NCBI GenBank assembly: GCA_002633005.1 | Contig: NMRA01000039.1 | Coordinates: forward strand, 365,225-429,224 | Source: Phoronis australis | Taxonomy: Eukaryota > Animalia > Phoronida | Length of the DNA stretch: 64,000 nucleotides | Direction: 5' to 3' | In this document: in pieces, positions 12,028 to 36,100 of the stretch | Position numbering within the stretch: the stretch's first letter is position 1 | Layout: the number at the start of each line of letters is the position of its first letter | Position numbers and translations under genes: made by a program | Notes under the pieces: model-generated | The model's input: only the letters and a program-made list of their open reading frames with translations | Told to the model about the DNA's origin: nothing | The model's database searches: none

Positions 12028-12174
12028 TTATGAGTAGAAGCAGACTTCGCCAATTGTGATTCCAAACTTGGCGTCTCCTTGTGAATCCTTTAGATAGATA
12101 TCTGTAATTGGTAGTCGCTCTGCATTCTTTGTGTCAACTTTCAGTACTGTCGATGCCCATTTGCTGGCCTTGAA
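12028..12174 (-). CDS. Collagen exon 34 (COLFI end, stop TAA)
   Basis: [48 protein letters not shown]. Confidence 0.96.
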   Translation of the reverse strand, partial: FKASKWASTVLKVDTKNAERLPITDIYLKDSQGDAKFGITIGEVCFYS

Positions 12175-15100
12175 CTGTAAAGTATTTCAGTCGCGATAAG
12201 AAAAGAGAATAAGATCAGCCCAAAAGCGAAAATTAAAACTTCAATTTTAGTGTTAGGCTGAATAATTGACAAAAGAAGGTAGTAACTCAATTCAGAGGTT
12301 TTGGATTTTTTGTCCAGGCAAAACGGTTCATGTATTTGTAATTGCATTTCCACAAATGTAAAACTTAAATACAAGTAACAAGATAGAGAACTTCATATCA
12401 ATGAGCCTATTATCTTTGTCAAAAACTCATCTGGAAAACAAAACTGCTTCTGCAATGTTCTATAACTCACCCGACAATCGTCGTCTCCGACTACAGAGTA
12501 AATTCTTGAGCTCCTGCCTTCTGCCTTTATTAGAGACTCGTTGGCTCCCTCCAAAGTTGCAGCCATGCCAAAGTTACCGTCTTCATCCCCGTAGACCACA
12601 GAGTTTTTACAGTGGTACGTGATCGTCTGCTCGGCACGTGCACTGAGGAGTTGTAGGAAGTTGAGCTGTACTGGGCTGATGTCATAAGTGAACTGGAAAA
12701 GTTCATTAGAATCTACTATAAACAAAGCCTAGAATATAACAAATGTAGACCTCTACCTATGAAGTTGGGCAGGCCTTTCTGATTTGAGACTATACAGTGT
12801 TGTCTAGGTGGTTATCACTGATGTGAGTCTTTTGAAGTTTCTCAGAATAGAAAAAGCTGCACATTAATACCATTTCATAAATGAGATACTTCTCTAAATC
12901 ACTGACGTCTGCAAATTGACCATCGAGAATTTCTTCGTCACTTTGACTAAACGTACATAGCCAGGTTAGTGATCTTACACCCTCCCGCCTGTACTCAAAT
13001 CCCTTGACCCCCCCCCCGCATCCCCCGTGTCTGTGATGTATGAATGAGGTGTGCGACCCGTGGGCGCAACACATTTGTAGTTTCTACAGGTAGTCGATCT
13101 TCCGCCACAATTCATGGCGCAGGCGACTTAATGTTTTTTCAACAAATTAAGACAATAAGTGGTGCTTACCACAAAACCGCCAGTTTCTATTTCACTGAAT
13201 GGTAGTCCTTCCTTCTCTTCTGCATTAATGCTGGGGTATGCTCTCTTGTCAACGTGTTTGACAGCCTTGATGCAGGTCTTGCCGCGTCTGCACGTGACAG
13301 GGACGGCATCCTTTACGTGCCCGCCGTTAGGATCGACCATGTATTCACCTATAAACAGATGAAAACCCCTCAACTAGTCTGTTGATGTCTGGAAGGCAGC
13401 TGCTAGCATTTGCTGGCTAGTTTTAAAAATCACTTGATAATTGTTATAATTAAACACATCGGTGGATTACATAAGATTAGTATTATTTAAAGTCGAATGC
13501 CGTCAAGGCATAAATTTTACATGAAACTATATAGACCAACAGTGCACTAACCAACACAACTATCCCCAGTATTCCATGGTTCTTTTTGTAAGTTCTCGTG
13601 TGCGCGTTCCTTTTGTTCATTTATAAGCCTAACATGATATTCCCTTTGAGATTGGTCAACGTGTTCTGATACTTCTACTGCATGATGAGCAGACCTAGGT
13701 GAACTCCTATGTGAAGAGCTGCTCGTCTCAAATGAAGCCTTTCTCAACTAAATTATTACCATCTTCCATGTCTGGATTTGCCTTCAGGAGATCGTCGCAT
13801 GACTTTCCGGGGTAAAGTTTGTCGCCTCGTGGTTGATTCAGCTGAGAAAGAGCGTCGCGTAGGTTGCCCAGTCCTTCAAGTAAGTTTTCGTCTTCCTCGT
13901 CGTTGTATGCGTTAGGATCGTCACCCTGGTCAATATTTTGGTTTGTTAAGAATCTCACGCAAAGTGCGCAACTATCGGTGATTACTGGTTATTAAAGATT
14001 GACTCCTTGTAGGCTTTTATACCATCTGGTAACGTAACTTGCGTTGCATGAATCGGCGCTTCAGATATCAGATACGAACAAAAAGAAATTCTGCAAAACT
14101 TTAGATAATTGAAGTTTCTTCAGGCCTGTATTTAAGTAACTGCTTCTCGTTGGCATTTCATTAATCGCGTACCAGCTGTCTTAGAAGCAGCTTCAATTAA
14201 TTGACAAAAAGGTCCTTATCTGCGCCAAATGTGTTAATGCGTTACCAAAAGCTGAATGATATAAAGAACATGTGTGACATACCTGGCCTTTGCCACGGCT
14301 GAACATGCGACTGAAAGATTCAGGGCCGAAGGCAGGAGATCCGCCTGGTGGTCCGGGAGGTCCCGGGGGTCCAGGAGTACCTGATGGACCGGGACGGCCA
14401 TCTTCACCGGCAGCACCTCGTGATCCCTAGTAAGTGTGATGACACAATCGAAATATCGTAAAAACGATGCTAACGGTGATGATGCTGGTGATTAAAACGA
14501 TAATAAAAGCGATGGCAAGGGTTGTAGTAATAAAATTCCAGCGAGTAGATATTAGCTACTTTAAAGCAAGCGCCATACTCGTTGCAACTCATTGTGAACT
14601 CATTTAAAGATACCCCGTTTTAAGCCAGGTATTACCTTTCTGCAATTATGGATTCTTTTTATTTTTCACCCTCGTGAAGACCATTGCCAATGGCCATGGG
14701 AAAGGAGTGACCTCTACAAGGAACTGGGAAGAAATAACAGTTCTATGCGAAATATTGAACCTGTTACCTTGTCTTATTTTCAGATCTACTAAAACACATT
14801 TTGATAGAAAAGCAGTGTTAACATGCCCCACGATTAACTTCTAGTCTTGACTTCCAACTGAACTATACATCAAAGATGAAATGTCATTACTCACTGGTGC
14901 ACCAGCCGGGCCAGGCAAGCCTGCAGGTCCTGTGAGACCAGCAATGCCACGTTCTCCAGGTTCACCCTGGAATGATCGAAATGTATCTTAAACTTTAATT
15001 ATGAGATATGTGATGACATTCATAGTCTAGGACAGCCCAGCTCTGGTAAAAATTGTGAGTTTTACTGGTCCAGACGCTACAGTCATATAGAAAATAGGAG

Positions 15101-18100
15101 ACTTTGCTACAGTAGAAAAATTCCAACTGTTAATTTACAAAAACCTATGTAATGCTTAAGATGCCTGCACTGATAAATCAGAAAACGGTTTGCTTGCGTC
15201 AAGTCAAAATTTGACTAGTAGATACTGGAAAAACATTGTCGCTAACAGTTAAAAAAGGCTTCCACATATCACGCCTAGTTTGCTTACTCTTGCTCCTGGT
15301 GGTCCTGCGTTTCCGGTGGGTCCAGTTTCGCCAGGGGCACCGGTTGGACCAGGTGGGCCCTGTAGACCAGGAAGACCAACGTATCCGGGATCACCCTTTT
15401 CTCCCTGGGGACCGGATTCGCCCTTCTCACCTTGAAGCCCAGTGTTACCCTGTTTGAAGGAAAATCAAGTTATAACCACAATCATCTGGTTGTACGTAGC
15501 TCAGAATAATTCAAGACATCAGAGTAAACGTGTAACCCTGCGGATAACAATATATACACAAAACGTACCGAGAGTGGCGTACATGAAGTAATATCCCACG
15601 AGACATTATTCCGCGTATCGACCTCGACCTTCGGTCTCGCGGAGTAATGTCGAGTGGGCTATTACTTCATGTACCCCAATCGAGGTAGGTTTTGCATTTA
15701 TCCCATACGCTTCAAATTCCTAAGTTTCTTTCATTTTTTCCGCAGATTTTTAAGTACTTCACTCAGACTGTTCACGTGGCGGATCACATCCCATATGTAT
15801 GTACTTGCGCGTTAGCCTGCAAGTTTTATCTAGTAAAAGAAACAGTTTTAAATGCCACGATTTATCACTTGAAAAGAGATAACAAAGATGAAAACAAGGG
15901 TAACTTTTTATTGAACTTGTAACATCTCCTGAAAATAGTTAAATAACAACAATATTTGATATTGTAGTTACGAGGAATCGGCGCCTGAGTTGCAGACGAT
16001 AAAATATTTAGCAACTGAAAACTGAGACAGAACTGTCATGTAGTTAACAGTCCTGTTCCAGATGTTACGATTGAGACCTGATTGTATATTGAGCGTTATT
16101 TACACTGCTATAATTGTATTACTTTAAACTATTTTTTTGAAAATTTGGTGATCGAACCGGCTAACGACGTCTAGTCGACATTGACCTACCTTTTGAACTT
16201 TCCATGTCAGAGGTCAACGTTGAAGTAGTGCGGGAGGTGAATACGGAAAATGTTATTACATGGCCGTATTTCCCTCAACAGATTCAACGTGTATGGGATA
16301 AATGCTACTACACATGTAATCAGAAGGATTATCAAAGAGGGACAAATGGATCGATTTTACGTGACGTCAACAAAGGTCTGGGTTTGTTAATGATTGGAAA
16401 CGTTGAATGTAGCAGCTCCTAACAGTTCATCTATCAGCCTTCTTTTGTTTTCATTGTGTGGCGCATGGAATTTAACATTTATTGACCTCAAACGAAAAAG
16501 AATAGTGTGAACGCACGCGAAGTAAGGCCTGAACATATTGAAAACACCTTAGAAGATACAGCATGTTCATAATAACTACAGACGTAGCAAAGGGACGGCA
16601 TCAACTCACCNTTGGTGATCGAACCGGCTAACGACGTCTAGTCGACATTGACCTACCTTTTGAACTTTCCATGTCAGAGGTCAACGTTGAAGTAGTGCGG
16701 GAGGTGAATACGGAAAATGTTATTACATGGCCGTATTTCCCTCAACAGATTCAACGTGTATGGGATAAATGCTACTACACATGTAATCAGAAGGATTATC
16801 AAAGAGGGACAAATGGATCGATTTTACGTGACGTCAACAAAGGTCTGGGTTTGTTAATGATTGGAAACGTTGAATGTAGCAGCTCCTAACAGTTCATCTA
16901 TCAGCCTTCTTTTGTTTTCATTGTGTGGCGCATGGAATTTTACATTTATTGACCTCAAACGAAAAAGAATAGTGTGAACGCACGCGAAGTAAGGCCTGAA
17001 CATATTGAAAACACCTTAGAAGATACGGCATGTTCATAATAACTACAGACATAGCAAAGGGACGGCATCAACTCACCGGTGCTCCACGAGGTCCTTGGTT
17101 ACCTTCTGGACCTTCCGGGCCCATTTCACCCCGTGGGCCGCGCTCACCAGAGGCCCCCGGAGGACCCTGGGGTCCTGGACGTCCTATAGCGCCAGGAAGA
17201 CCAGAGGGTCCTGGTGGACCCTGGGAACCAACAGGACCCTTCTCGCCCTGTCGTCCAGACAAACCAGGGTTGCCGTCTTTACCCGGTGGACCCTGAAAAT
17301 ATGATTTGAATTCAGTGACCCAAACGCTCATGTGATACAATGATTTGAGGAATTTTTCATCGGCAAATAAACAAGTTATGACCTTATACGAGTTTCGCAG
17401 ATTTGTTTTCAGATGAAACCATAATCGAATAAGTGCAACCATTATAAAAGAGATAATATACTATTTTTCGGTCGTGATTAGTCACGGCACTAGGCTAGGG
17501 CCTGTACATCATTATCGTTGGAACGCATTATTGAGTTTATGTTTTGGGGTGGAACCCTTTGATTTGTTTGTTACGTCAAGTTAGCAAAAAATTCATTAAT
17601 TGCTTTAACGGAAAATTCGCTGCGGCTATAGTTGATCCATTCGAGTTTGAAGTTTACAGCTTCGGCTTGATCCTAATTGTACAGGACTATAATCAGGACG
17701 AAACCATTTGGAACATGAAAGAGCAAGATTGTTTATACTGACGCCCCGGATTGTTAAACTCTTCGATTAACTTAGCACTCACCGGTGCGCCCGGCTCTCC
17801 GGGAGCCCCAGGGGATCCTGGTACGCCTGGTGCTCCAACCTGACCTGGAGTTCCATCCTGTCCGTCCTGACCGGAGGGTCCATCTTCGCCCTGAGGTTGA
17901 TAAAATACAACAGGTTTTTCTCAGATCGTATAATGGAGTATCGCCAAGTCTAATGTATCTTCTACAGCAAATACTCCCGTAACCCTTGTTTTGTAAAAAC
18001 CGCTTGCACCAATCGCACGATTTGCTAAATGCTGCTGAATGATTCTTGAATGGCTTGAATTTCACGACATGTCCATTCAATGAAACTCGGGTCAATCGCA

Positions 18101-21100
18101 TAACATCTAGTAAGGACATGGTGTTCTTTGTTTACCCAAAACAAGGACCATGAGAAAGTTTACTAGCAGCGTATAGTCAATGTGTGCACGTCCAACTTAC
18201 ATTTACTTCCATTTAGGTAATGAATTATTAATCAGTCAATGTTATTATTGCGTAACATTAGACGGTAGTCATACCCTGTCACCCTCTGGACCCTGAGGAC
18301 CTGGCTCTCCTTGTTTGCCTGGCAAGCCTGCCAATCCGCGATCTCCCTGTTGACCTGGTGGTCCCTGTGGTCCGGTTAAACCCTGGGAACAGAGATTTTA
18401 CATTGCTTTACTTCTGCCACTATCTATAGAGTTGTTCTAGACGCCAATAAACGTTTTTCGAGGCCGTTTTCTCCTCACACACGATAAATGACTATGGTCA
18501 GCCAGAACAAATAGTCGGTCAAGACCGGCATTAAGAATCATATAAGCCAATTACACAGAGAAATAACGTACATTACTTGGCAAACACTTAAAATAAAACG
18601 CTCTTTTACACATTTAGCAGCATTAATAAGCCTTTTATGATGATCAATGAAGTTTTTTATTTTACGTTCAACTCCACCTCGCGAACTACACCCAAGTTCA
18701 CAACAATCAATCAATTAATTTCAGCAAATCACTGCGCGGGAAAGTGTAAACATTACGATCGTCTTTTGTCTTGTCCCACTTACATTCGTTGCTAACCAAA
18801 GCAGAAATATGGTTTTTCAATGCGCCATTTCTTTGTCTACCAGATAGTAATGAGATTACCGACGCTCAATACCTTCAAACGTTATTCGACACCCGCCAGA
18901 AAACTGTCCAATCTCATTTTGCGAAAACTGAAAGTGACCCGAGCCGTGCCACGCAATTGGTCAATTGTCGAGTCTGGAGTGACGTGTGGCACTCTCGAGT
19001 CCAAGTCCCATTAGAATGCAGGCTATGCATTGATGAATGAGTTACATAATTCTGGGCCCTGTTTCATGAAAAGTGAATTAATACTTAAGTCAGAAATTTG
19101 GTCGTTTGCTCCACACAACTATTTCTGAAAAACAATTAGTTTTCACTTGAGCAAAAATGCTGTCTCAGAGAATATGCGCATAACTGCTAGTTACTGAGAT
19201 AATGTGTATTAATTATTTTTAGACAGTGATGCACTCATAATTACTTGGCTAAACATCTATTCAGAAATTGTTAATTGCGGGCGTAACACCAGATTGCTGA
19301 TGTCACCTTCATGAAACAGACTCTTGAACTCTCAAGGGTTTATTAGGTGAGTCCAAACTCATACCTGTACTAAGAGATCTTACCGGCGCACCATCAGCTC
19401 CTCTCTCGCCTTTGTCTCCAGCTAGACCAGCAACTCCTGGGTTTCCAGCCTGGCCGGGCGGGCCCTGTGGACCAACTGGGCCACGCGAGCCCTTGGTGCC
19501 CTGGGGGCCAATTGGGCCCTGGTTGCCCTGAGTGCCGGGAGCTCCTTGCTGGCCGGGACTGCCGGGCGTCCCCGGCTGTCCGGGGGAGCCACGTTCTCCC
19601 TGCTGACCGGTGTCTCCTGGTCGACCCCTCTGCCCTTGCACGCCCTCTTTACCCTAGAAAGGAGTCAGTATAACTGAGGTTCAGAACATCTGGTGTACGT
19701 ATACATGGAACAGCTACCCCCGGCTTAATTGAAGCGTTGGAGCCTTGACGCAAAATACTTTAGCAAAAGAATTTTCTAACTTAAGTAAGCTTACGACTCA
19801 GTAAAACAGGTTCTTCCTTTGGGTGTATCTCAGAGGATACGTTTCGTTCATCGGAAATTTCACTCGTTGATACCATTACCTCCTATTGTCAAAATATGAT
19901 GCACACCAATAAATACGTATGCTTACCGTTTCGCCGATGGGACCTGCATCACCACGCTCACCAGGAGATCCTTGGTCTCCTTTCACGCCAGGAGCGCCTG
20001 TGTCGCCCTTTGGTCCGGGAGGTCCAGCAACACCCTGATCGCACACCACAAGTAAAATTGAGCAGAAGACATTAAAACCGTGATCAGCAGTAGGCCTAAT
20101 GTTTTGGTTCAATCCTATCCAACGATGTTAAACTGTCTAAGACAGCACCCAGGAGAGAAAAACGGAAGAGTGCTTTGAACAATCCATTAAACCTCCTATA
20201 GTAACTAGATTATTGAGGCCACCAGAAACGAACCTAGACAGTGGATTTTATCTAAAAATACAGATTAAATAAACGAACAGCAAATTTTCTACATTAAAAT
20301 GTCATAAAGTAGACCACACATGAGACATGTTGGGTAAATACGTGCATAAATTTGGTTTGGTTATGGGTGTCCATGCTTTAGTATTTCAGTATAAAAAGCT
20401 GTCCTGTCTAGCACTGAATGGTGCATCTCACCCTTTCACCAGGAGGACCTCGGGGTCCGGTACCACCCCTGGGACCCTCGTCTCCTTGCGGACCTTCAGC
20501 ACCACCTTCACCTGGAAGCCCACGGTCGCCAGTTTTCCCTTTCCTTCCAGGCTCACCGGCTGACCCTTTGCTGCCCGGAATTCCTTGATCGCCCTATATT
20601 CAATCGGTCAGAAAGCGTAAGTTTTAGGGAGGGGAGATGTTAGTACCAAATGTTAGTGAGAGTGTGTGTGTGCTCGGATATCTTGCTGGCTACTCCTGGA
20701 AATGGTCGTCGTTGAAGGAGACTGAAAAGTGTCAACAGTGCTGTTAGATACTCGCAGCTGTGTGTGAGCGTGTTTATCTACATGTACCACACGCATACGT
20801 GAAACACACCAACGCACAAGTGGAGGGTGTCACATTAGTTGGGTGTGATGGGAAATTAGGGCAGAGTGCAAAGTCTCTTCAAACTGAAATGGTTGAAGCA
20901 GATGCCACTGGGTGTTTAGCTGGATAGGTGTGCCTATGTAGGATGGATCCTGAAATGAAATCATCGAGGTGACTGGTGGATGTTTGCTTTCGGGTGGAGG
21001 TGTCCTGAAACTAAACTACAACTGAGGTTAGTGAGGATATCGGAGGGTCTTCGGGGGGGGTGGAGCGGTGGGTATCTTTCTTACCCTTTCACCGGGGAAA

Positions 21101-24100
21101 CCCTGTATGCCCTGTGGACCTTGAGGTCCATCGGGTCCTTCTGCGCCATCCTGACCTCTCTCACCGGGGAATCCCGCTTCTCCTTGTTCTCCCTTAGCGC
21201 CAGTAAAACCAACTGGACCAGCGAGACCTACAGGTCCCGGTAGACCCTAACGAGTAAGCTGATGTGATTATGTTGAAACTAAGTGCAAAAGTGGACACGC
21301 GGCAAGTGATGTAATAGAAACGAAGTGAGACATTTGTGGAACTTGCCGTTCTATTTCAGTACATCATGAGTGACAAAATACATTGTGAAAATCAACGCTT
21401 TTGTTTTAAAAACAACTTAGTTAACATTTTTTTTTCTCAGAAGGCGTTTACTCTTTGCGGGAGAAATAGTCTCCTAATTATTCAATATTTAATTTCCGTT
21501 GAAAAGTTGAATGTTCTTAGTTCGAATAACTTACCCGAGAGCCATCTTTGCCGTTCTCACCAGGTTTGCCTGTGTCTCCGGGCTCGCCCTAAAACACAAA
21601 CATACGGCTTTCGTGAATTAGTGAGGAAATGCTTATTTTCAATTCCATTACTAATTTTCTGACATGAAACGGTGAATGTGAAGAATGCGTCTGCTTATCC
21701 TCTTTTAGGTGACAAGTGTAATAATTCGAGTCCATACCACTTTGTTCTACTCATCCAACGTACCCTAGCACCTTTCTGTCCCGGTGGTCCGTCTGCTCCC
21801 CTTTCGCCTGGAAGACCCTGAAAGTGAAAATGCGTACAATATACGACCTGACTGTGCAAAATCGAATCCACATAGTTCATGTTAATTCATTAAAACGAAT
21901 TAGGTAACAACTCATGAATTATTTCTGCTTCCAACACTGACGTCAACTACAGCGAACTAAGTAGATTGCAACACCGGTTCTAAATATAGTCTTTGTCTGG
22001 TGTTTCCCGTGTTGTTTAGGTTTACTAGCATCGTCGAGAAAACCATAACATCATTCTCCGGTGGATTTAACCAATATTGATGCATGAGTAAAGACCTTCC
22101 CAAATTATCTCTGGCTTTGGTCGTTGATTGATTGACTGATTGGCTTATTGAGCACCAATTAGCCAAACAATACAATACAACACAACAAAGCACATACGAG
22201 GTGATGCACGGGATTTAAGGATGAAAATAAGGCCAAGATAGATGGCGCCTAGAGGCAGAACTTTATAGTCGTACATGCGCATGCCTCAGACTTCAAACTT
22301 CGTAAAGGTACTAGATAGACCTTTATAGCGTACTTTGTGGCATTGATGTTTAAACCCTGTTTACTTACGACCAGTCCTTGATCGCCTCGTTCACCCATAT
22401 CCCCGGGCTTGCCGGGTGCTCCAGGGGCGCCGTCTGAACCACTTGGACCTGGTGCACCCCTTTCGCCCGGTGCACCAGTGGCTCCTGGTGATCCACGCTC
22501 GCCGGGAAGGCCAGGATCTCCCTGGAAACATAATAGAGACGTTTTACAGGCACATTGCTATTACACAAGCACAGTGCGGGACATCTTACATCTTAAGAGA
22601 TGATTTGGTGGGAGGTCAAAACTAAATTGCAGACTATGGAAAAATGTTGTTGGTCACAGAAAAAGGAGCAATGTTGGCAGAAAGTCGTCAATGCCACCGC
22701 GCATTCCTTGGCTGCATAATGCTGGCAACCAAGAAACAATTCAGTGATACAGAATTACTTTAAATTTTAAACGGATACAAAGTAACAATATCAGCAACCC
22801 CTTTTCTTGAAATAATCGTACCGTTGTAATGAGAAATGAAAACAAACAATGCATATTTCTGGAAAGCATTGCCAAAAGTAAACCTAAATAATGTGAGCAA
22901 TACATATTTGAGTACTGCCATGTGTGATACGTACTCTTGGACCTTGCTCTCCTGTAGTTCCTTGTGAGCCATCTTTTCCTGGTTCACCTGGAAGACCCTG
23001 ACTGCCGGGTACTCCTGGGGCTCCGGGGAGACCCTGGAAACCTGTGGAGCCTGGTGCGCCCTCGGGACCGCGCTCACCTGGGAAACCCTGTCAGGGCAAA
23101 ATAATCGCAAAAATCAAACGCCCCTACCGTACAGAACAACGTTAGCAGGGAAAATTGCCTTAATTTGTTTTATACCTTTACCACTTTTGAATGATGACTG
23201 GGTTATTTCGCTAGAGTAGGACCCATGACTATGTCTTTGGGATCGAATTTGTCCAACATTTTGCACATTTATACACGTATGATACGCATGCAAGAGTTGT
23301 GGTGCCATTTTGGCTGCTTTAAAGCCATCGGCACCTGTGTAGACATTTGTTGATCATGTGGTCGGTTGGCGACGTTTTGTCCTTTTTTCCTGTCTTGAGA
23401 AAATAGCAGGAGTGATCGATTTCAAATACTGATTTCGAAAGTTTTTTTATTACTCCTGTTTTAATAATGGAATGTACCGCACATGGTTTCAAAACAGATG
23501 AATAGGGAGTACGAGCAACAACAAAAAGGAACGCAGCTTTTCCAGTTTTATAATTTATTTACTACGTTCATGTGATTTCTCAAAAATCTCAGTTAGGTAT
23601 AGTTCTGTATTTGCCGAATTTTATGTTATTGGATTGGATAATACACAAAGATGGTAGGTGTCGTACAAAACGTTTAGATGGCTGCAAAGTGCCGTAAAAT
23701 TTGGGTCAAAATTCTCGTCTGCAATTCGTGCGTTTTTGTACCGACGACATGTTTGAGCTCCTCGTACTCATTCTTCAGCAGTATCCATTGAATCAAACTT
23801 TTCGCCTTTGAATATATTTTTCCTTAATAATCACATTAAAGTGACAATATCGGCGAGGAAAGTGAAGTCAGCCTTATCTCGGATTCGGTCCTGAAAGGTT
23901 CGTGCTGGTCGCAACGAAACGCTCTTCTGCGCAAAATCGCATTCAATAAATGGCAGAGTTTTTAAGCGTATTTAAGTGGTAAAGGCGTCAGCCTTCATTT
24001 CAGCTAACTTCTGGCAGACATAGACGAGAATTGGCGATTTGTGATCAAATCACAAAAGGCAACGGATTTTATTGTATTGTAGCTCTGATCAAAGCAAATA

Positions 24101-27100
24101 GCTCCAAAGCTTCTATCCACTTAACAAAAATGCCCAAAATGCTGATTTCGACAGTAAAAACGATAATTTCCGTTTAAAACTAAAACAGCAGTTCATCTAT
24201 ACTTAGGCATTATTGTCCTACCTGTTGACCGGGATCACCTTGCTTGCCTTGCAGACCTGGTTTGCCGCGTTCACCCTGGGCTCCAGGAGATCCCTGTGGG
24301 CCCTGGGCTCCGTCCTTGCCTGGCACACCCTGCGACCCTGCCTCACCTGGCGACCCTTGTAGGCCTGGGAGACCAGGTGGACCCTGGACTCCTTGTTCGC
24401 CCTGTTTGCCGTCTGTGCCTGGTGGACCCTGTAGTGTCATGATATTTCTTCCGTAAGAACATAAACAATTTACTACAACCCCGGTTGGCCAATGGCTACA
24501 CTGGATTCACTACGCCGGTCATGTCTGGTTGGTTCTCTGTGACGACATCCGGCTTACAATCCAATCAGATTTGATACGGCTGAACCGGCGGAGTCAACCC
24601 AGTGCAACCAATAAGCACGCTGTCCCTACTCCCCGTCATATACATTTCGTTAAACACGAGAACGGAATTACTACTCACTTAAAATGGGCAAGCAAGCAAC
24701 TGGCGCCCAACAACGCCTCTCCTGTGAAAAGGTATGCCATGTATACGGCAGTCTTCTTAGCTCTACTGAAAATTATGCTTCCGAAATGTGCTTCAGTATT
24801 GTTTCCTTCATTTCGTTTGAAATCGGTACTCCGGTGTTCAGACTTGCAAAGATATATTTTACGATGTCTGTTAGAAGATTCTGATGCAGGACACTCTGGA
24901 CAGGTGTCGAGTAAATGCTCATCGTCCACCATTTTATCAGGTACTCAGTCCTGAGTTGGGATCTTAACCAGTGAGTGTAGTTCATGCAAAGGTTTTGCAC
25001 CGCTGCAACGGCTGTCGCCCTCGACATGTAAAGTCGCGAAAAGAAAATGATTGCCTTACCATCGGGCCTGGTTTCCCTTGAATACCGTCAGATCCAGGTC
25101 GGCCGGGGATGCCCTGTTGGATATTGAAATTCAATCATCACATTATTTCAAAATCGACCATTCGTTGTATTCTAAAAACAAAACATTGGTACCCTACATA
25201 AGCAGCTCTATATGTTCATTGGTGCTAAGACCCTTGCAATGCTTGACAATTTGATGCTTGTTGTTTACATTCTACTTCTACTACAGACGTTCACTGAAAA
25301 CCGCCAGCATGCAAACGTTATTTACATCATCCTAACTTAGAAATAATACCGTGGTAAAAAATTCTTCACTTACCCTTAGACCGCTTAAACCTTGTGAACC
25401 GGGGTTGCCGCGATCACCCTGAAAAGCATATAATTCTGTGAGAGATTGTTCATAATAGGGGACTTTTCATATTTTCGCACTCTAGAGTAATGAGTGTACA
25501 AAAGTGACTTTTGATTGATCCTGACTCAGATTTGGTGGACAGGAATTCAATTACTACATAGTGATTCATAAGTATGAAAGCAGAGGAATACATTCCACTA
25601 TCACCCACTCCCATTGTTTGATTATTTAAAGTTTACTAACTTATTTTAGTTTTTTTACTCGGGCTGGGATCGAAATCCTCCCGCTTTATCAACGACAACA
25701 CTGGCTTTGTCGCGGATACATCTTCACATTTGCAAATGCATGGAAAAGGACGTCCTTGCACATCAAAGGGTTTGCCTTTTTTCGTGAAGCATTGAAACAT
25801 CCCACCGCACAGCGACTATTTTTTATGATAAATTTAAGCAAATATTTTAATTCTAAAACTAACAACTCACCGTTGTCTTTCTCTCCAGGTGACCCATAAG
25901 TCTGTGTATTGAATATCTTACTAATTCTTCAGAGTTATAAATAATAAGCGGGACAGGTATTTATTAAGACGACTTATTAAGGTCATTTTAGCGTTAACAA
26001 AAAATCTCATTGCTGTACACTTGTCGCACATTCCAGGTCCACGGATTCACATTCCACGAACTTATCCTCCTCGGACTTTGTCATGCGTGACACCTACCGT
26101 TGTTCCATCGGGACCAGCTTCGCCAGGGAAGCCTCGATTGCCTGGATTCCCTCGAGTCCCTAGCTCACCGTCAGGCCCGGGGTAACCACGTCCACCGGGA
26201 AGACCCTATAACAGTGCAAAATAGTGCAGCATGTGTGTGCGTGTTATATAAACGAAGCTCACCTTCCTGTCTTCAACGGCACACCTGAAACTTGAAGGGA
26301 GAAGCGGGAGTTAAACTTGCCACGTTTTATTCGGTCAGTCCATAGTCAAATTAACAAAGAAGATTCTGTAATTGGTAAATATAGGCTAGCCACGGTTGAG
26401 TTCAGTAAGGCGAGATCACGCCAGGCATCGCATGTCAGTTCCGGGATCTCACTGGCGTGGCCTCGCAATAACTAGCATTACACATAAGTTGCTCTCTGAG
26501 ACAGCAATACCGGGATTCACGCTGTTCAAGACTTTGTAGACTTAAGCTATTGGGTGGAATTCTCGCGTATAGTAACATGGCAAGCTTGATGATCATTAGT
26601 ACGGTAGGTGAAATGGCAGGGTTTCATGTGAGGGACGTTGTTAAGGCTCCACTGGGTGAAGTGGTCTCTTACTGACTAAACTGTACAAGTTTCGTTCCCA
26701 GAAAGCGTAGGCAATGTAGCCAGGTTGATTCTTGGTCGACGCAGTTTGATACAGGAAGCAGGTTGGGAGCATTAGTCACAAATGTTAACGTTGATATTTG
26801 AAGTGACTCACAGCCTGAAAAGTAGAACTAGAGGACGCACGTGCGGCTAATGAGGTTAGAATTAGTCTGTAATAAAAATAATTCAATGGGTCGGTGTCTG
26901 GGAAGCTACAATGGCAAAGGAAAGCGATGAATTGACAAGTTATGGTGGCACTTGCTAAGGTAAAAACGAAATGGAAGGTGGTCGTGCAATGGAGGGGGTT
27001 ATGGTTCTTACCATGGATTATGACTTGTGTCGCCATCTGGTGGAACGCCTCGCGCCTTACCAACATGGGGAGGGGGGAAAAGGGAGTTGTTGTATTATAC

Positions 27101-30100
27101 CTGGTTACCCCTGGGCCCCTCTGCGCCGGGTTTACCACGTTCGCCTAGGTCTCCTTTTGGTCCCTGCTCACCATCAACACCAGGATGACCCCGATTACCT
27201 TGCACCCCCTAAAACATTTAATAAATTAATAAACGGCTTTGCTGGTTCTCTTTGTACCCATTTCCGATCACAGAACAGCAGATCTGAGAACTCTTGGTCA
27301 ACGAATCATTTGCATAACTTTCTGATTCCTGCAATTCATGCAAACGAAGTATCCATTGCCTACGGCTGACTTTTGAATATGTCTAGATGCTCAGGTGTCG
27401 TGGGACACAACACCTAAATACAGTTGTGCTAACAGTGATACAAAGTTATAAGCAATAGTTAACGTCACTATAAAACATGTACCCTGGTACATATATTTTT
27501 ATGTCACGCCCTGCATCACTACCATCACGCTCAACAATAAAGCCAGGTAGATGGTTTACTTACACGAGGTCCCAAAGGTCCAGTTGCCCCAGGAGGTCCA
27601 GCAGGTCCGCGTGCACCCTGTAAGAAACCAACGTCACTGTATCACGCATACATGGCGGTGCCACCAAAAAACATATCGTACATGTCAGTGCATCTAGGAA
27701 AACATCCTTCAAGTGACATTGTTTCTTAAAATGTTTCCACGACCAGAGTTCCGATCAAACACCTTGCCTATTAGTTCCACTCGAAACCGTAGATAACTGA
27801 AGAGTCGCTGTTGGATAAATCATGCACAATATCCCCCATTGCAGATGGACAACTCTTTTTGAAAGATGTCATGATACTTCTTACTTAGCAACGATTTTGA
27901 ACTTATTTTGCACTATCAAGATTATTTTAAACAGCATTTTGTCATTTGCACTTAAGCGCAAAGCATTTTTATTTAAGCTCAAAGGGTAATGTTACTGAGT
28001 TTTAAGAAAGTGTAATTTTAAAATCCACTTACGCGTGTTCCTGGTTCACCTTGAGCACCCGTGGAGCCAGGCTCACCGGGGGCACCTTGCTCACCACGAG
28101 GACCAGTAGCGCCGGGAGAGCCTGGCAGACCTGGCGAGCCAACGTCACCTCGTGCACCCGGCGTGCCTGAAGCGCCCATTTCACCTTGAGGTCCTTGCTG
28201 ACCGGGGAAACCTGGAGAGCCGGGTTCGCCTGGGGAACCAGGGGCACCTTTCTCACCAGGGGTTCCGTCGCGACCTGGGGATCCCTGAAATGAATAGTTA
28301 GAACAATGCAAACGCTCGGTTGGTATTTCTCGTTCATCTGTTGGTATTTCTCGTTCATCTGTTGGTATTTCTCGTTCATCTAATTGCTCACCGTTTCTTA
28401 TCACAGCTAACGAATCCACAAGGAAAGCGATCGAGTAATTGATGCTAGTTTTCGTTGTACACATGGTTACTAATTAATCCATCCACATCTACTCACACTG
28501 ATACCGGGTATTCCGGGGTCTCCTTCCTGTCCAGGGTTGCCTCGTGGTCCCTGAAGTCCGGTGCCACCTTTAGGTCCCTGTGGGCCGGCGTCTCCTTTAG
28601 CTCCTGGAGACCCTGGGAAGCCTGGTGGACCAGGTGGTCCCATAGCACCCGGATCTCCAGCGTTTCCTGGCAAGCCATTTACACCACGTTGTCCCTTGAA
28701 ACAGATTGATTGCAATTATCTGGTGAGGCTGCCGAAGATTTGAATTGGTAAGATTTAAAGACCAATCGACAGGACTTTGTCGACTGGTTATAGAATTTGT
28801 TGTTTGTCGTAAAGTTGATATTTCGTTTCTTAAGGAAATCTGTGGATTTGTGAAAACTCGTTGACTATCAGTGGAGTGAAATCTGAACTGCCTGCTTGAT
28901 TGTGCGACTCCACTTGAGCAATGGCATAATTTAGAACTTTTAAGATAACTTTCTCTGTAATTTGCGCTCACTGATGACTTGTAGTGATTGTTAGCCATCT
29001 CAAATTCTTCTATGCCTGTTTCTTTATCTTTTTTTGTGGTGACTTCTGACTAGGCGCTTAAAACGACGTAATCCGTTGCAACATTTGTACTGCCAGAAGC
29101 CTTGTCGATTCCATGCATATCGGCGACAAACCTCTTGTACCTTTGCACACTACTTACGTATCTCCCGGGATATCCTGGTCTTCCAGGTGAACCCGTGTCC
29201 CCACGTTGACCCTTAAAAATCAAAGTTTTCTATTGTAACGTCCAATTCAATTGGCACACACAGACATTACTTACTGGTACACCTGGGGCTCCCACACGAC
29301 CCTGCTCACCCTGTGCGCCTTGTTGTCCCTGCAAAATAACTTTCAATTTAGCTCTGTTCGCCGACATGATCGCCAGGCTTGGTTAGCTTAGTAAGCGGAG
29401 CTATTTCGGGGTTTCTGTGCGCTGCCAACACATAGACTATGCTGTTGAGTCTTTACGGAAGAGCATTTTCCATCGAACTATTCCTTAGGGCTCATTAAGA
29501 AGTTGGCATCGTTAGGGCGGTCCTAAGCTGGTAGCCAGTGCTGTACTAGTAAAGAATGTTATGCTGCGACATTTTATTTTTTCCTTTTATTGATATCTCA
29601 GAGTCAGCCAAATATCAATCCTAGTGCCAGTAAAACAAGGTTATAGCAAAACTGTTATCTCAAAACAAAAGGAGCTTGTTCCACGCTCCTTCCTTTTTTC
29701 CGCCAATGGAAAAGGAGAATTAAGAGTGCAGAAACTTTCTTGGGGAAGTATTTGACGACACTGGCTACCAGAACCTGAAGCAGACATTAGTTAAGCGAAA
29801 AAGGCAGGATAAATACGTAACGTGAGACGGCGCTGTAACATTATGTCATGCATGATAAAAATTAAGAAATAATTTAAAGCATAGTATTAATACAGTTATA
29901 TTGCATCAGTACTATTGTGCCTTAAGAAACGCTTTTCCTTCAAGTTCACCAATTATGAACGTGTAAACAGTTCCAACAACAGTCGAGATACATCACTAAA
30001 ATAGAAACGTTTCATGAATTACAGTCCGGCATGTTTTTACGTAAAAATTTAAGTTCATTGCCGTTTAATGGTGGCTGACATTTTGTTGGTGCACTGCCAG

Positions 30101-33100
30101 AAAATCAAAAAATATTCTTTAAATTAAGTGTTTAATGCCGATGATTTTGAAAATATTGATTACGTGTTGAAAGAGCATGAATCGGTAACACGTATAAACT
30201 GGATTGGTTTTCGTTCAAATTCGTTCAAAGCATTTGTATGAAAGGAAAATAATTTGCGACGAACATGACGTAATATAAGAGATAATATAAGCATACATAC
30301 AAAACCTGTTGTGTAAATGCAAAACTGTGGCTATGTACTAGTAGAATTCAAAGAGTCCAGCACAATTTTTTGTCAAAATAAACCCAGTAACTGCAACACA
30401 ATTGATAGAAGCCAACCACGCATCGCTCTTCTTCTATGTCCCGATTTGCGTGAAATTGATTTCACGGTTGTAACATGCTTTGCTACAAAGACTTAAGAAT
30501 AGTAATAACGCGTGTCATAACAGTATCGAATGGCACTTTAAAGTCTAGGAATATACAATAAAAATAACAGACATTGACAACAAACAAGCCAGCAACAAAA
30601 TGATACAAAAAGCAAGCTTAAAACTAATAGCGACAGTATAGAGGACGTGTTACTTCTCTGGTTATTTACCTAGTTCTTAGGGTGTGTACAAGTATTGGAT
30701 TTACAGCCTGTCCCTCTAAGAGAGACTGGGATAATTTATCTTCTTCTTGACAAACTATTTATTGTTTGTCACACTTAAAAGGCCTTAACAAACAAATTAT
30801 ATGTAGGTCTTCGCATCAAAAAGTTTGAGTGCTAATTGGGTATCATTCTGTACTGATGATTAGTCGTGCTAAGAAGTCAAGACAAAACTTAGTAGTCACC
30901 GAAACTGGATCCTATGCACTACGGAATGGCATGGCATGAAAAGTATTTTAAGAGCTCTCGCGCTTGTAGGTGGTGTTTACGCGTAAATTAATTCTCGGTT
31001 CAATGCAAAAGCACCGACCATTTCTCATCAAGACTAGATGAGAGCGATTCTTCTCAAAAGAAGGCTGACCTAAAGTCACACACTCACCTGTTGTCCAGGA
31101 GGACCCGGGGGTCCCGCAGGTCCACTTTCCCCCTTATCACCCTCTTTGCCTTGTTCACCTTGGGTACCTGGTGGGCCGTTAAGACCCTGGATAGAAAAGT
31201 ATATGCTAGTAAGGTTTGTGCAAAATATCTGAAACGGATGTATTTTTAACCGCAATCCTTCTTAATAAGACGAAAACTCTCTCTATTACCACCATCATGT
31301 GAATTTGTTTACAGAGACATTGAAAATTGGGGTTGCAATGACGATACGAGTATGAATACAATTCGCAAACCAAGTAACATAATGTATTTGATCAGGACTG
31401 GGCTGCATAAAAACTTCAAAATTATCTGCTAGATAAATTTGATTGTTGCATGACGTCAGGTGCATTGTTCAACAATAACGACGTGATAATGCGACGTCAT
31501 TGTTGCTATGCAACGTATAACTTTTTATGCAACTGGGCCCGGTCACCATTTGCAGATTGCTTTCTAATCGGCACGCATGAAACAATCTTTGACGGCGTTC
31601 TTTGGTAATTTCCAAAACTGTTAACTCCGCTTACTTACTCGATGTCCCTTAGGTCCCGGAAGTCCTGGGATTCCATTTGCTCCGCGTATACCTGGAGCTC
31701 CCGGCATTCCCTGGGCTCCAATCTCACCGTCTCGTCCTTGTTCGCCCTATGGAAAGAAACAAGGCGAGGTGTCGAACTAGCCATTTCATTCTTAACTGTT
31801 TTCATAATAAAGACGTTATTAATATATTAGTTTTATGCTTTTCTCCTCGGCTCTAATATTAGACAAACCCGATGTGGTACACGCCACAGAATATCACTTG
31901 CAGACTCCCGGTAAAGCGCCAATAAGCGTTTCAGGACGTACTCGTCAAGTGCCACGGCAGTTTCGTGATTTGGATTTCACTAGGTGGCGCTAATGAGGTT
32001 CTTTTTGTATTTATAATCTAACTAAAATCAATACAATTTGATCGACAGTATGACAACGTTCGTGAGATCAGGGTTCCACGTGAGCCACTTACACATGTAG
32101 TTATTTCGAACTCATTAACACAGGTCACCTGAATCCAAATAGTGGATATGTTGTCTTTTGGTAATCCAACCATTCACTGTAACACTGGCATGTACAGCAC
32201 GCCTACGAATGGAACTGAAAAGGCGTGTTGACTTACATCCTTTCCTGGTGTTCCTGGAATACCGGGAGCTCCTCTCATACCTGGTGCTCCCGGGGGGCCT
32301 GCTTCACCTGGTTCGCCACGAACACCGGGGGCTCCCTGAGCGCCCTGAATTCCGGGGGGTCCTGATGAACCACGTGGGCCTGCTGGTCCCTGCAATACAC
32401 AAAAAGCGGAAGAGTTGGTGCACACGTGACTCTGAACACGCGCCAATCTCTTAAAAAATCCGTTGGAAGTTTCAGGTGGTAATTCCTTGTGTATGTAGAC
32501 CAAAAGAAAATCTCTAGAAGGTTGGATATCTCTAGAGACTAGCTTTTAGACTCCGCACATTAGGAATCAGTTGGTGTTGCAATCAATGTGGATCGCATGT
32601 TCTGCAATTGTATATTATACGAACATGCGTTACGTACAGAAAGGCAAGAACAAACACACCTATAATACGTCGCGATATAGCGTTATATGCTCTTGCTATC
32701 AAGTCTCATAATCAATAAAGAAATACAAAATGTATTTGGTTCTCCAGTACGTTCCCGAATCTTTACATAGTTATTCGAACAAATATGCAGGGTGTTCAGC
32801 CACTATAGACATAGGAACGCTTCGCATGTGTAATCAGTTTAATTTCTCTCGATATCAAGGTTTTACAGGTAGTCACATACAATTAGTTGGCTTCTACGGG
32901 AGCGTTCACACTTACGACTTGAGCCTGTAAGTACTGAACAGAGGCTGCTGCGCCAGAAGCCTTGTCATTCTGGAATTGTGCTAGCAGGGAGCCGACGTCG
33001 CCTGGAGGTCCTGGTGGACCCGGGGGTCCCGGTACACCGTTGACACCGTCCTTTCCTGGGTCGCCCTGAATAAATAAGGTTGTTGAGACACCACATTCAG

Positions 33101-36100
33101 ATGCACCGATTGCAATGAAAGTGTTCCCAAAGTTGCGATTTGTACATGTAGCTATGATAGCATCAGCGTTCAGTGTAGAATAAACTTATAAATAATATTA
33201 GTTTTGGCTAAATTAGAAGCAAAAAGTGGAAAACAAAACTACGCTGGAGTGCATTATGAAATGACGTTTCGGTATAAATTAAATATCACCATCAGTACAA
33301 TAGTACATAGAAAACAAAATATAGTGTCATAATTTCTTACCTACAATAAACTAACACGTTGTTTTCCAGTTGCGCTTTAAAGAGGAATGATTGTAACTTC
33401 TTCGTATTAGATAGCGTTCTATTGACACCACTTTTTACACGTTTTCGTGTACGCTGGCGCGCATTTTGCTTTCCTATTCACAGTGTCTGCGTTCCAACAG
33501 CAAGAATTGTTGACTTAGCTGACAGCTACTTTAGACAAAATAACACCGTGTAATCAAATTATTTGCCTCAACAACCACCTCAACTATATCAATGAAAGAT
33601 AACCTAAGACAGATGGGTATACATGTACTTCAATGTGCATACGCCCACCCAGCCGTAAAATATGGGGGCTCGAATTTTTGAGAATGTGGACCTTTTACTA
33701 AGATTCGCGGGGTACGTAACAGCTATGAATGAATTGTGCATTCGGCGAATTTTGGTGGTTCCTGCCTTTTTAGTGGACTTGTTGCTCGTTTTCTACTTTT
33801 TTGGTATTTTTGTTTCTCTGAGGAGGACTTTTTTGCTCACTTCGCCAAATAGGGGGCTCATTCGAGCCCCCCGAACCCCCCTTGGTGCGCTCATGGTGTG
33901 GAAGTAATGAAGAACGCGCATCTGAGGAATGACTACAAGAATATGATACCGTAAACTCTCGTTTACACGCCGGTAAAATCACGATTGGAAAATAAAAAAC
34001 GCAAATTTCGCGAAAGGAAGTCCTTGGTGTTGCACTTGAATATGAGCCGATGTCGTTTCTTCGGTATAAGGCAAGTCGCTAAGTTCTTGTCTTCTTACGC
34101 TCAACCATGACCACATCAAGAGATATGTATTGTCAAAGTTTCAGAGATATTGGTTGGCTAAAACCAGTCCATAAAAATAACGATTAAATGATAAAACAGG
34201 GCATGATATCAATTCGAACATCGAATATGGCGGGCGCGTGTAGTTGTCACTACCTTCTTATGCATAAATTCGATAAACTCCAAATAAACTTGAAGAGCTG
34301 GGGACTGTTTTATCAACTTTGCAATTTTAATATGCACAAATTAAGAAAATTTTCGACTTGAACGCCAGTGGCAAAACGGCCCCCTGATTTCTTTATCTCA
34401 AACACATTGATTAATATGATTACCTATAATATCCAGAGATGTAGCTTAAATTCCAACAAACTCCCTCGATGTAAGGACGACTCGAGTCGAGGAAACTACA
34501 GCTTAGATGCTCAAATCGCGACAATTGAAAACTCATTCGTTAAATGAATTAAGGTCGTGCGGTTTCCCTTACACCCAACCTCAGGCATTTCCCACCATTT
34601 ATACTCTAACAACGACTTATAACCAATTTAACTCAAACGTGTTGGTTCATTTGGCTTAAGTTTGTTTTACTTATTAGAATCTGCAATCGCTAATACGACT
34701 ACTAAATACTTGCAATTCGGTTATTATTGAAAACAGATTCAGTGTCAGCAGCAGCTCAAGTATCGTCTGACAACTTTCGCTTCGCGTATCAACCCTTTCT
34801 TACACCGGGTTCCGAGCATGGAAATTTTCGCGCCACGTGGATTATGCAAATAACTATACTAGCGCGAACTAGTTTTTTAAATTCCGTGTTTCTTATGGAC
34901 AATAACTTTTGCCATTCCACTACTTGTATGCACATTAGCCAATCTCGCAACTGTACTCCTTGGCTGTTGAATGTATAATTAAAATTACATATAAACAAGA
35001 GACTCGGTTACTTACCCGCAATCCCATTTTACCCATCGCACCAGTAGGGCCGGAAGGTCCGGCTGGTCCCTACAATCAATAATCGATACTCTTTCAAAGA
35101 TAAGCCAATGACACTTTTCCCAAAGACTCAGATGAATTTTCCACGACTACAATCGTACTATTCAGTGATAGTAGTTTTTAGGTTCTGGAATAAGCATGCT
35201 AACTATAGCCTAATAAATGCTGCGATAACATTATTTTTTGCAGTCAATCATAATCGACGTGTAAACGCTTATTGACAAACTGCACGTCATAACATTGTGT
35301 CTTAGCCATTTACTCAATTTCCGCATAGTAAAGAGGTTATGTCTAATTAAAGTTACAAATGAAAATATTGGTTAAGACAATGAAATAAAAAGCCGGATTT
35401 AAATTAGATATTAAACTGTGGTGATGGCGTTATGTTTATCGATATTTAAAAATCAAACCTGTAAACCTTGATACGCCACGGCAAATCCGTCTCCATTGCC
35501 CGCAACCTGGAAAGTGAATAATTCCAACAGTGTTACTTACATTGGCGATGTTCGTGATTTTCATTCGTTTTAGCACGTTTGATTAAGATATGACTCATTT
35601 ATTTCTCCTGAAGGGTTTATGAATATCCAAGTGCGAGTGCCATGGTAACTTTGTGCAAGTCGATCACTAGATTTTCTATCGCCACGTTTTCAGTTTAATT
35701 ATGCAAAAAGGACCAGGTATCTTCTTGGTAGGTACTTACAGCCGCCGCGTCTGCTGGGTCATCTGAAATACAAAAAATATTTCAACTCAGTGGTTTTTAC
35801 AAATATTTCTACACATGCTAATAAACGTCGTTATCCATCTGTACTGTTTAATCAAAAGTGAACTCCATTTGCATCTTATAAAAGGGACATGATCGGTGAA
35901 TAAAGTGATTTTCTGAGAGCGCGTAATCGAACCGAGAATCTCTGCAATCGTAGACTGACGCTCTGCTGGTAGCGCTCAATCCCACGCGATAAATGGCAAA
36001 GTATTTGAGCGCGTTAACATGTTGATGGGAAAGTCATTGGCCTTGATTTCAGCGAATACCTTTGTTGTCTGGCAGACAACGGCGAGAATTGGTGGTTTAT

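What the first reader, a model, noticed from the sequence alone, without database searches (positions are those of the whole stretch)
20432..29328. Three pairs of equal-length, apparently mutually exclusive exons inside the major triple helix of a fibrillar collagen
Seen: exon pairs 10a/10b (54 nt; 29275-29328 / 29158-29211), 14a/14b (108 nt; 27101-27208 / 26098-26205) and 22a/22b (162 nt; 21085-21246 / 20432-20593) are adjacent, identical in length, phase 0, perfect Gly-X-Y and have intact splice sites, yet differ strongly at X/Y positions. One exon per pair gives 337-338 triplets, with the flanking exons staying in register with COL1A1; all six give 373-374. Established: the fibrillar helix is fixed at about 338 triplets by D-period packing. 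The alternative splicing I know in fibrillar collagens is in the N-propeptide (COL2A1 exon 2, COL11A1/A2 variable region); helix-internal exclusive exons are known for C. elegans let-2, a type IV collagen. Inference: one gene makes 2 (coordinated) to 8 length-matched alpha chains with a shared C-propeptide, so splicing could replace gene duplication for tissue/stage-specific fibrils or heterotrimers.
Basis: partly seen in the sequence, partly recalled or inferred. Interest (0 to 1): 0.92.

Follow-up and report, generated by a model that had tools for sequence, protein, structure and literature searches.

The report
Swappable helix exons in fibrillar collagen
A fibril-forming collagen gene of an animal (likely an invertebrate) carries three pairs of same-length exons inside its triple helix; RNA reads show the main message using one exon of each pair, and one pair used either way, so the gene likely makes several equal-length versions of a rod whose sequence is normally fixed.

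Summary
All six exons lie at the stated places on the minus strand, phase 0, pure Gly-X-Y, with AG/GT ends; one per pair gives 338 triplets, all six 374. RNA-seq rules out the 374-triplet helix as the main form: all four runs splice 10a-14b-22b. Pair 14 is shown to be mutually exclusive: one run has 13>14a (4 reads) and 14a>15 (9) beside 13>14b (98) and 14b>15 (110), with no 14a>14b or skip-both joint listed. Exons 10b and 22a were not seen spliced; their use is inferred from intact glycines and splice sites although 29 of 45 silent sites differ between partners. A simple all-a/all-b switch is not supported. Tissue or stage control, protein products and conservation are untested; no close orthologue was found. 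Known: exclusive exons in type IV collagen (let-2) and in the COL5A1 C-propeptide. My literature searches found no equal-length Gly-X-Y swap in a fibrillar main helix, but this scan has noted such swaps in other genomes (an invertebrate gene, shark COL1A2). New variant of a known kind.

The parts
29275..29328 (-). Exon 10a, 54 nt, 6 triplets, helix residues 124-141; the form used in all four runs
   Evidence: 9>10a 24/24/125 reads, 10a>11 18/19/84 reads (X2/X3/X4), and X1 contig
29158..29211 (-). Exon 10b, 54 nt alternative to 10a; intact; not seen spliced
   Evidence: no joint among the 15 of 19 shown; depth leaves at most a few reads
29212..29274 (-). 63-nt intron between 10a and 10b; likely too short between donor and branch point for the two exons to be joined
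   Evidence: adenines 15-41 nt from the 3' end lie 23-49 nt from the donor; branch point not mapped; threshold under 50 nt from PMC5740500
27101..27208 (-). Exon 14a, 108 nt, 12 triplets, helix residues 310-345; minor form, spliced 13>14a>15
   Evidence: 4 and 9 reads (4 and 8 starts) in X4; none listed in X1-X3
26098..26205 (-). Exon 14b, 108 nt; major form, spliced 13>14b>15
   Evidence: 19/29/98 and 7/22/110 reads (X2/X3/X4), and X1 contig
21085..21246 (-). Exon 22a, 162 nt, 18 triplets, helix residues 586-639; intact, acidic and hydrophobic, two GFPGER motifs; not seen spliced
   Evidence: no joint among all 14 listed; depth at intron level
20432..20593 (-). Exon 22b, 162 nt; the form used in all four runs
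   Evidence: 21>22b 17/15/108 reads, 22b>23 21/22/91 reads (X2/X3/X4), and X1 contig
14337..32389 (-). Main triple helix, exons 7-30 (27 exons with the alternatives); 338 triplets on the spliced path
   Evidence: joints from exon 9 to exon 24 read directly
36488..36673 (-). VWC exon of the N-propeptide
   Evidence: PF00093, E 1.7e-10
32916..35069 (-). Minor helix and N-telopeptide exons (35016-35069 and 32916-33065)
12028..13945 (-). C-propeptide (COLFI) exons, shared by all isoforms; lacks cysteines 2 and 3
   Evidence: (PF01410 in four pieces)
25780..27064 (-). Predicted RNA duplex between 27028-27064 and 25780-25817 that would loop out exon 14b; candidate only
   Evidence: -39 to -40 kcal/mol, 0 of 20 shuffles as stable; strongest of 25 exon-flanking intron pairs in raw energy, third after length scaling

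Best explanation
This clade A-type fibrillar collagen gene holds three pairs of alternative helix exons; the main message takes one exon of each pair, pair 14 is spliced either way, and pairs 10 and 22 are likely switched in the same manner in tissues or stages not sampled here, so the gene likely makes several chains of one length (338 triplets) that differ in sequence over up to 108 residues. Shown: main path 10a-14b-22b; minor path 13>14a>15; no double inclusion or double skipping listed for pairs 14 and 22. Inferred: each pair arose by tandem exon duplication long ago and both copies have been kept by selection; exclusion must be done by the spliceosome, because every exon is a multiple of nine bases and no frame-shift decay can remove wrong products; pair 10 is likely kept apart by its 63-nt intron, pairs 14 and 22 by regulated choice (splicing factors, perhaps RNA pairing). 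Equal length would be enforced because chains must stay in register within the trimer and the fibril. The swaps would change charge, lysine number and binding motifs of the fibril surface, not its period.
For:: every major joint from exon 9 to exon 24 follows 10a-14b-22b in three raw RNA runs and one contig set. One search lists all 14 joints in 19900-28419: 13>14a 4 reads, 14a>15 9 reads, against 98 and 110 for 14b in X4 (14a share 13 of 221); no 14a>14b, 13>15, 22a>22b or 21>23; partners differ at 155 of 252 non-glycine-fixed bases and 29 of 45 four-fold silent sites, yet at 0 of 72 glycine first/second bases; 22a would stay intact with P 0.003 if it had been free of selection for a tenth of that divergence; splice-site scores of 10b and 22a lie within the range of the constitutive exons. 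Register with solved collagens: both 14a and 14b match best at the same place of type II collagen (9wxp_BD residue 146); 14b ties for best at rat alpha2(I) residue 321, the place predicted by the 338 path; exon 11 follows rat alpha1(I) in register (13 of 26 X/Y residues, counted by hand) only with one exon 10; unspliced intron reads collect around clusters 22 and 14 and are absent from constitutive introns 16-17, 17-18 and 19-20. About 338 triplets is the family norm (PMC2852846, passage).
Against: 10b and 22a were not seen spliced in any run. 14a rests on 13 reads in one run of one study. One of the 19 joints was never displayed; it lies outside 19900-28419 and could be a weak 10a>10b joint as well as a 10b joint or a spurious one. 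Recent loss of 10b (P 0.3-0.6) or 22a (P 0.05-0.3) within the last 2-5% of the divergence cannot be excluded. Pairs 10 and 22 are no more alike than random helix windows, and profile searches did not place 22a or 22b at the expected register. No orthologue from a relative was found, so conservation is untested. No protein evidence.
Confidence: 0.8

Rival explanations
1. Only pair 14 is a live switch; 10b and 22a are old alternative exons that fell silent recently and have not yet decayed.
For: No joint to 10b or 22a was listed; 22a depth is at intron level (0.04-0.18 of 22b); recent loss fits the intact sequence with P 0.05-0.6.
Against: Both would have had to fall silent within a few percent of their long history; their splice sites score like constitutive ones; intron reads pile up around cluster 22 as around the live cluster 14; only one study and 18-19% of each raw run were read.
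Confidence: 0.12
2. The extra exons are cassettes that are added to their partners in some tissue, giving a longer helix (344-374 triplets) for fibrils of a different period.
For: Double inclusion keeps the frame and the Gly-X-Y pattern; the 491- and 895-nt introns are long enough to splice; one joint was not displayed.
Against: When 14a is used it joins exon 15 and skips 14b (9 reads, none listed to 14b); three pairs of exactly equal length are not expected of cassettes; both members of pairs 10 and 14 match the same vertebrate position; the family norm is about 338 triplets.
Confidence: 0.04
3. All three minor exons are relics and the 14a reads are splicing noise.
For: 14a appears in one of three raw runs at about 6%; it has the weakest donor of 26 scored.
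Against: Both of its joints are read, from 4 and 8 separate starts; its absence in X2 and X3 is expected from their depth (P 0.87 and 0.61); it keeps all 12 glycines and is closer than 14b to type V alpha2 collagen at this place (10 versus 6 of 24 X/Y residues, counted by hand).
Confidence: 0.04

Closest known systems
C. elegans let-2, alpha2(IV) collagen, exons 9/10 (PMC2119826, abstract; PMC4165533, passages)
   Same: Mutually exclusive duplicated exons in the collagenous part of a collagen gene; a very short intron between the partners (30 nt there, 63 nt in pair 10 here).
   Different: let-2 is a basement-membrane collagen with an interrupted helix; its exons are 108 and 111 nt, very similar, and differ mainly in the interruption; one pair only; a developmental switch is shown. 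Here: fibrillar collagen, three pairs, identical lengths, no interruption, partners differ at 55 of 72 X/Y positions; no switch shown.
Human collagen entries in the mutually exclusive exon catalogue of Hatje et al. 2017 (PMC5740500; passages and supplement rows)
   Same: Lists exclusive exons in fibrillar collagen genes: COL5A1 (two 69-nt exons) and COL24A1 (a 54-nt helix exon).
   Different: The COL5A1 pair encodes non-helical sequence (C-propeptide, by my recall); the COL24A1 partner is 42 nt and not Gly-X-Y. No equal-length Gly-X-Y pair in a fibrillar gene among the collagen rows shown from supplement file 3.
N-propeptide splicing of fibrillar collagens: COL2A1 exon 2 (PMC2289128, abstract start in listing); sea urchin 1alpha and 2alpha chains (PMC2852846, passages)
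   Same: One fibrillar collagen gene gives several chains by alternative splicing.
   Different: The variable part lies in the N-propeptide; the main helix is unchanged. Here the variable part is the main helix, which stays in the fibril.
Earlier notes of this scan on other genomes: e1-7275146, e1-7275148 (invertebrate), e1-8584717 and related (shark/fish COL1A2 exon 24) (AI notes, not checked here)
   Same: Equal-length alternative exons within a fibrillar main helix.
   Different: Other genomes and at least partly other exons (five clusters, a 99-nt triplet, one 54-nt pair); no look-alike stretch of this locus was found among the notes.

Membership tests
Fibrillar collagen | COLFI C-propeptide | tested here: met
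   PF01410 in four exon pieces, three above the curated cut-off; best solved matches are type III and type I C-propeptides
Fibrillar collagen | Unbroken main helix of about 338 Gly-X-Y triplets | tested here: met
   338 on the spliced path; joints read from exon 9 to 24; norm from PMC2852846
Fibrillar collagen | Phase-0 helix exons built of 54- and 45-nt units | tested here: met
   23 of 24 exons on the path fit; exon 29 (72 nt) does not
Fibrillar collagen, clade A | VWC module and minor helix in the N-propeptide | tested here: met
   PF00093 E 1.7e-10; minor helix exons
Fibrillar collagen, clade A | Groups with types I-III and alpha2(V) in a tree | not tested
   No tree built; no full-length uninterrupted homologue was obtained
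Fibrillar collagen | Signal peptide | tested here: inconclusive
   No convincing first exon found upstream in the window
Mutually exclusive exon cluster | Adjacent exons of like length and phase for the same protein region | tested here: met
   same vertebrate position for pairs 10 and 14
Mutually exclusive exon cluster | Each member is spliced to both flanking exons: pair 14 | tested here: met
   run X4
Mutually exclusive exon cluster | Each member is spliced to both flanking exons: pairs 10 and 22 | tested here: inconclusive
   Only 10a and 22b seen spliced
Mutually exclusive exon cluster | No joint between members and no skipping of both: pairs 14 and 22 | tested here: met
   None among all 14 joints listed (listing needs 3 reads from 2 starts, or a contig)
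Mutually exclusive exon cluster | No joint between members and no skipping of both: pair 10 | tested here: inconclusive
   None among 15 of 19 joints shown; one joint never displayed
Mutually exclusive exon cluster | Partners homologous by tandem duplication | tested here: inconclusive
   Pair 14 above background; pairs 10 and 22 not
Mutually exclusive exon cluster | Both members conserved in related species | not testable with these tools
   No genome held; no close orthologue found
Exclusion by steric hindrance | Donor to branch point under about 50 nt | tested here: inconclusive
   Fits pair 10 for any branch adenine 15 nt or more from the 3' end; branch point not mapped; cannot be judged for the long introns of pairs 14 and 22
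Exclusion by frame shift and decay | Exon length not divisible by three | tested here: not met
   54, 108 and 162 nt
Exclusion by competing RNA pairing (Dscam-type docking and selector sites) | Conserved complementary intron elements competing for one site | tested here: inconclusive
   One candidate duplex around 14b; no shared docking site seen; no conservation data
let-2-type collagen IV switch | Partners differ mainly in a Gly-X-Y interruption of a type IV chain | tested here: not met
   No interruption in any of the six exons; COLFI C-terminus; let-2 abstract
let-2-type collagen IV switch | Developmentally regulated exon choice | not testable with these tools
   Three raw runs of one study, tissue and stage not given

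The most novel reading that the evidence does not exclude
All three pairs are live and are switched by tissue or stage, at least partly independently, so that one gene writes up to eight fibril-compatible collagen chains: a splice code for fibril surface chemistry. Pairs 10 and 22 lie side by side in a D-staggered fibril and may be chosen together to balance charge. With the notes on other genomes, this would make equal-length helix swapping a repeatedly evolved and so far undescribed way of diversifying fibrillar collagen without gene duplication.
Probability: 0.45. Interest if true: 0.82.

Novelty: new variant of a known kind. Interest (0 to 1): 0.66.

Why it matters
The main helix of a fibrillar collagen is treated as one fixed sequence per gene; chain variety comes from extra genes and from N-propeptide splicing. 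Here splicing replaces up to 108 of about 1014 helix residues while keeping the length. The swaps are not neutral-looking: 22a has net charge -4, one lysine and eight large hydrophobic residues against 0, three and two in 22b; 14a has two lysines, 14b none; 22a adds two GFPGER motifs, the unmodified form of the vertebrate integrin site GFOGER, though the receptors for it are reported absent from invertebrates (PMC2784866, passage). The isoforms are natural matched pairs for asking how local helix sequence sets fibril diameter, cross-linking, mineral or ligand binding. It also warns that gene predictors will join such exons into over-long helices or drop one copy.

Tried and rejected
No whole genome is held for this window. 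Orthologue hunt failed: 22a as query gave only generic collagen repeats, best identity 59%; a C-propeptide exon found nothing among 186 candidates and at most 59% identity among the 150 of 234 representatives listed; 10 of those 150 were looked up and the named members were a lamprey and a fish protein; a follow-up gave 7 partial proteins. The word-based searches are weak for short queries, so this is no proof of absence. The Atlas search gave unrelated phage clusters, rejected. An in-register script had nothing to work on: no fetched protein had 250 unbroken triplets; the lamprey model is frame-broken. Profile searches with 22a, 22b and exon 24 against solved collagens gave out-of-register best hits; by hand, 22a shares 6 and 22b 4 of 31 X/Y residues with type II collagen at the expected place, which does not tell them apart. 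The joint 20503>24337 in X1 has non-splice ends and 21 matching letters, and is taken as another collagen contig. Assembly duplication rejected. RNA pairing: 1 of 7 intron pairs beat all 20 shuffles, not outstanding after length scaling. The RGD in 10b is not special: exons 12, 19 and 23 have one too. No listed sequencing holder was on record as RNA; the raw runs came by species label. Literature: 10 searches; eight looked for prior reports and found none of equal-length Gly-X-Y swaps in a fibrillar helix; subscription journals are mostly missing.
Full report
The gene. The window holds most of a fibrillar collagen gene on the minus strand: a VWC exon at 36488-36673, minor-helix exons at 35016-35069 and 32916-33065, 27 main-helix exons from 32389 to 14337, and C-propeptide exons from about 13945 to 12028. 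The VWC module and minor helix point to clade A; no tree was built. The first exon was not found. The organism is not known. The C-propeptide exon tested is at most 59% identical to anything listed, and I take the animal to be an invertebrate; that is an inference.

The observation. All six exons are as described. All main-helix exons together give 374 triplets; one exon per pair gives 338, the family norm (PMC2852846, passage). No further Gly-X-Y exon hides in the introns. Partners share only 3 of 12, 7 of 24 and 7 of 36 X/Y residues; only pair 14 stands above the background of other helix windows.

Register. With a one-triplet offset the lysine before GHR in exon 8 is helix residue 87, and the pairs cover residues 124-141, 310-345 and 586-639. 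Solved collagen sequences agree for two pairs. Both 14a and 14b match best at the same residue of type II collagen (9wxp_BD 146), and 14b ties for best at rat alpha2(I) residue 321, the predicted place. In the printed alignments, 10a shares 5 of 12 X/Y residues with rat alpha2(I) and 10b 4 of 12 with rat alpha1(I) at the same position, and exon 11 follows on in register (13 of 26); these were counted by hand. For pair 22, exons 20 and 21 sit in register with type II collagen (9 of 24, by hand), but the exons themselves were not placed by the searches.

RNA evidence. One contig set (X1, RNA by guess) and three raw RNA-seq runs of one study (X2-X4, 18-19% of each read) were laid. All follow 9>10a>11, 13>14b>15 and 21>22b>23. 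The main message is therefore 10a-14b-22b with 338 triplets, and the 374-triplet form is not the main product. One search showed 15 of 19 joints. One search, on 19900-28419, showed all 14 in its range, three of them new: one spurious contig joint, and 13>14a (4 reads, 4 starts) and 14a>15 (9 reads, 8 starts) in X4, beside 98 and 110 reads for 14b. No 14a>14b, 13>15, 22a>22b or 21>23 joint was listed. Pair 14 is thus mutually exclusive, with 14a at 13 of 221 joint reads in X4; its absence from X2 and X3 is expected at their depth. Exon 22a had no listed joint, and its depth equals that of the introns beside it. Exon 10b had no joint among those shown; calibrated depth leaves between none and about six reads for it. 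One joint was never displayed and may concern pair 10 in either direction. The tool lists a joint only from 3 reads and silently drops human-like reads, so absences are soft.

Are 10b and 22a alive? Partners differ at 29 of 45 four-fold silent sites and 155 of 252 other bases, but at none of the 72 glycine-fixing bases. Both copies were therefore selected as collagen for nearly all their history. Loss in the last tenth of it is unlikely for 22a (P 0.003), but loss in the last 2-5% is not excluded for either exon. Their splice sites score like those of constitutive exons. Unspliced reads collect around cluster 22 (7-18% of exon depth) and, more weakly, cluster 14, and are absent from constitutive introns 16-17, 17-18 and 19-20, as expected where splicing is slow and regulated. 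Conservation could not be tested: no genome is held and no close orthologue was found.

Coordination. The main form mixes a and b. If 22a were coupled to 14a, X4 should show about 4-9 reads at each 22a joint; seeing fewer than three at both has P 0.0002-0.05. So 14a probably goes with 22b in X4, and pair 14 is chosen apart from pair 22. Phasing needs long reads.

Mechanism. All six exons are multiples of nine bases, so decay of frame-shifted messages cannot enforce the choice, and all ends are ordinary GT-AG. For pair 10 the 63-nt intron, the shortest of 28 measured by far, puts any usual branch adenine within 49 nt of the donor, under the 50-nt limit used by Hatje et al.; steric exclusion is likely but unproven. 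For pairs 14 and 22 the introns are long. A predicted duplex that would loop out 14b beat 20 of 20 shuffles, but it was one of seven pairs tried and ranks third of 25 after length scaling; it is a lead only. Regulated choice by splicing factors, as shown for let-2 (PMC4165533, passage), is the default guess.

Consequence for the protein. The swaps keep the length and change the surface: charge, lysines, hydrophobic residues and two GFPGER motifs in 22a. Pairs 10 and 22 fall in the same band of a D-staggered fibril (234-residue period recalled); the dominant 10a+22b gives +3 in that band, 10b+22a +1, 10b+22b +5. This overlap could be chance. The C-propeptide is common to all forms and lacks cysteines 2 and 3. 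By the vertebrate rule such a chain makes no disulphide-linked homotrimer (PMC6181919, passages), but invertebrate chains can lack both, and helix sequence near the C-terminus also guides assembly (PMC11573663, abstract); none of the pairs lies there. Whether isoforms mix in one trimer is open.

Comparison and novelty. let-2 has exclusive exons in a type IV helix that differ mainly at an interruption (abstract). The human catalogue lists a non-helical COL5A1 pair and a COL24A1 helix exon with a shorter non-Gly-X-Y partner (supplement rows; files other than 3 seen only in part). Eight searches for prior reports found no equal-length Gly-X-Y swap in a fibrillar main helix; most subscription papers and bioRxiv supplements were out of reach. 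This scan has noted the same design in other genomes; those notes are unchecked and are not evidence here. Papers seen: PMC2119826 and PMC11573663 abstracts; PMC2852846, PMC5740500, PMC6181919, PMC2784866 and PMC4165533 passages; the rest as listings only.

Verdict. A real, RNA-supported case of mutually exclusive, length-matched exons inside a fibrillar collagen helix: shown for one pair, likely for three. New variant of a known kind; interest 0.66.

Noticed in passing
window 13731-13988 and 13131-13373 (-): The C-propeptide lacks both interchain cysteines (Ala at Cys2, His at Cys3) by alignment to type I and III C-propeptides.
   Followed up: partly
window 20035-21534: Both introns flanking 22b and the 21-22a intron carry sense-strand reads at 7-18% of exon depth, unlike constitutive introns: possibly a detained-intron block at cluster 22.
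   Followed up: partly
window 21085-21246 (-): Exon 22a encodes two GFPGER motifs; 22b has none (one GPPGER); constitutive exon 18 has one GFPGER and exons 19 and 20 a GLPGER each.
   Followed up: partly
window 27101-27208 and 21085-21246: The minor exon 14a is closer than 14b to a vertebrate clade A chain at that place (10 versus 6 of 24); 22a shows the same trend weakly (6 versus 4 of 31). The dominant message may use the more derived copies (hand counts).
   Followed up: partly
window 14895-14966 (-): Exon 29 is 72 nt, outside the 54/45-nt pattern of the other helix exons.
   Followed up: no
window 3162-3527 (-): THAP-domain reading frame downstream of the collagen gene (PF05485, E 3.7e-11); perhaps a transposon-derived gene.
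   Followed up: no
window 24010-24093 and 25474-25564: Short intronic stretches draw reads at 90-95% likeness with loose ends on both sides: small dispersed repeats transcribed elsewhere.
   Followed up: no
window 28316-28381: Three tandem copies of a 21-nt unit in the intron between exons 11 and 12.
   Followed up: no
run X1, laid on window 20483-20503 and 24337-24360: A different collagen contig (depth 115.6) matches short pieces of the helix, so at least one other collagen is abundant in that run, a possible partner chain.
   Followed up: no
window 16611: The window's single N lies in the intron between exons 27 and 28.
   Followed up: yes
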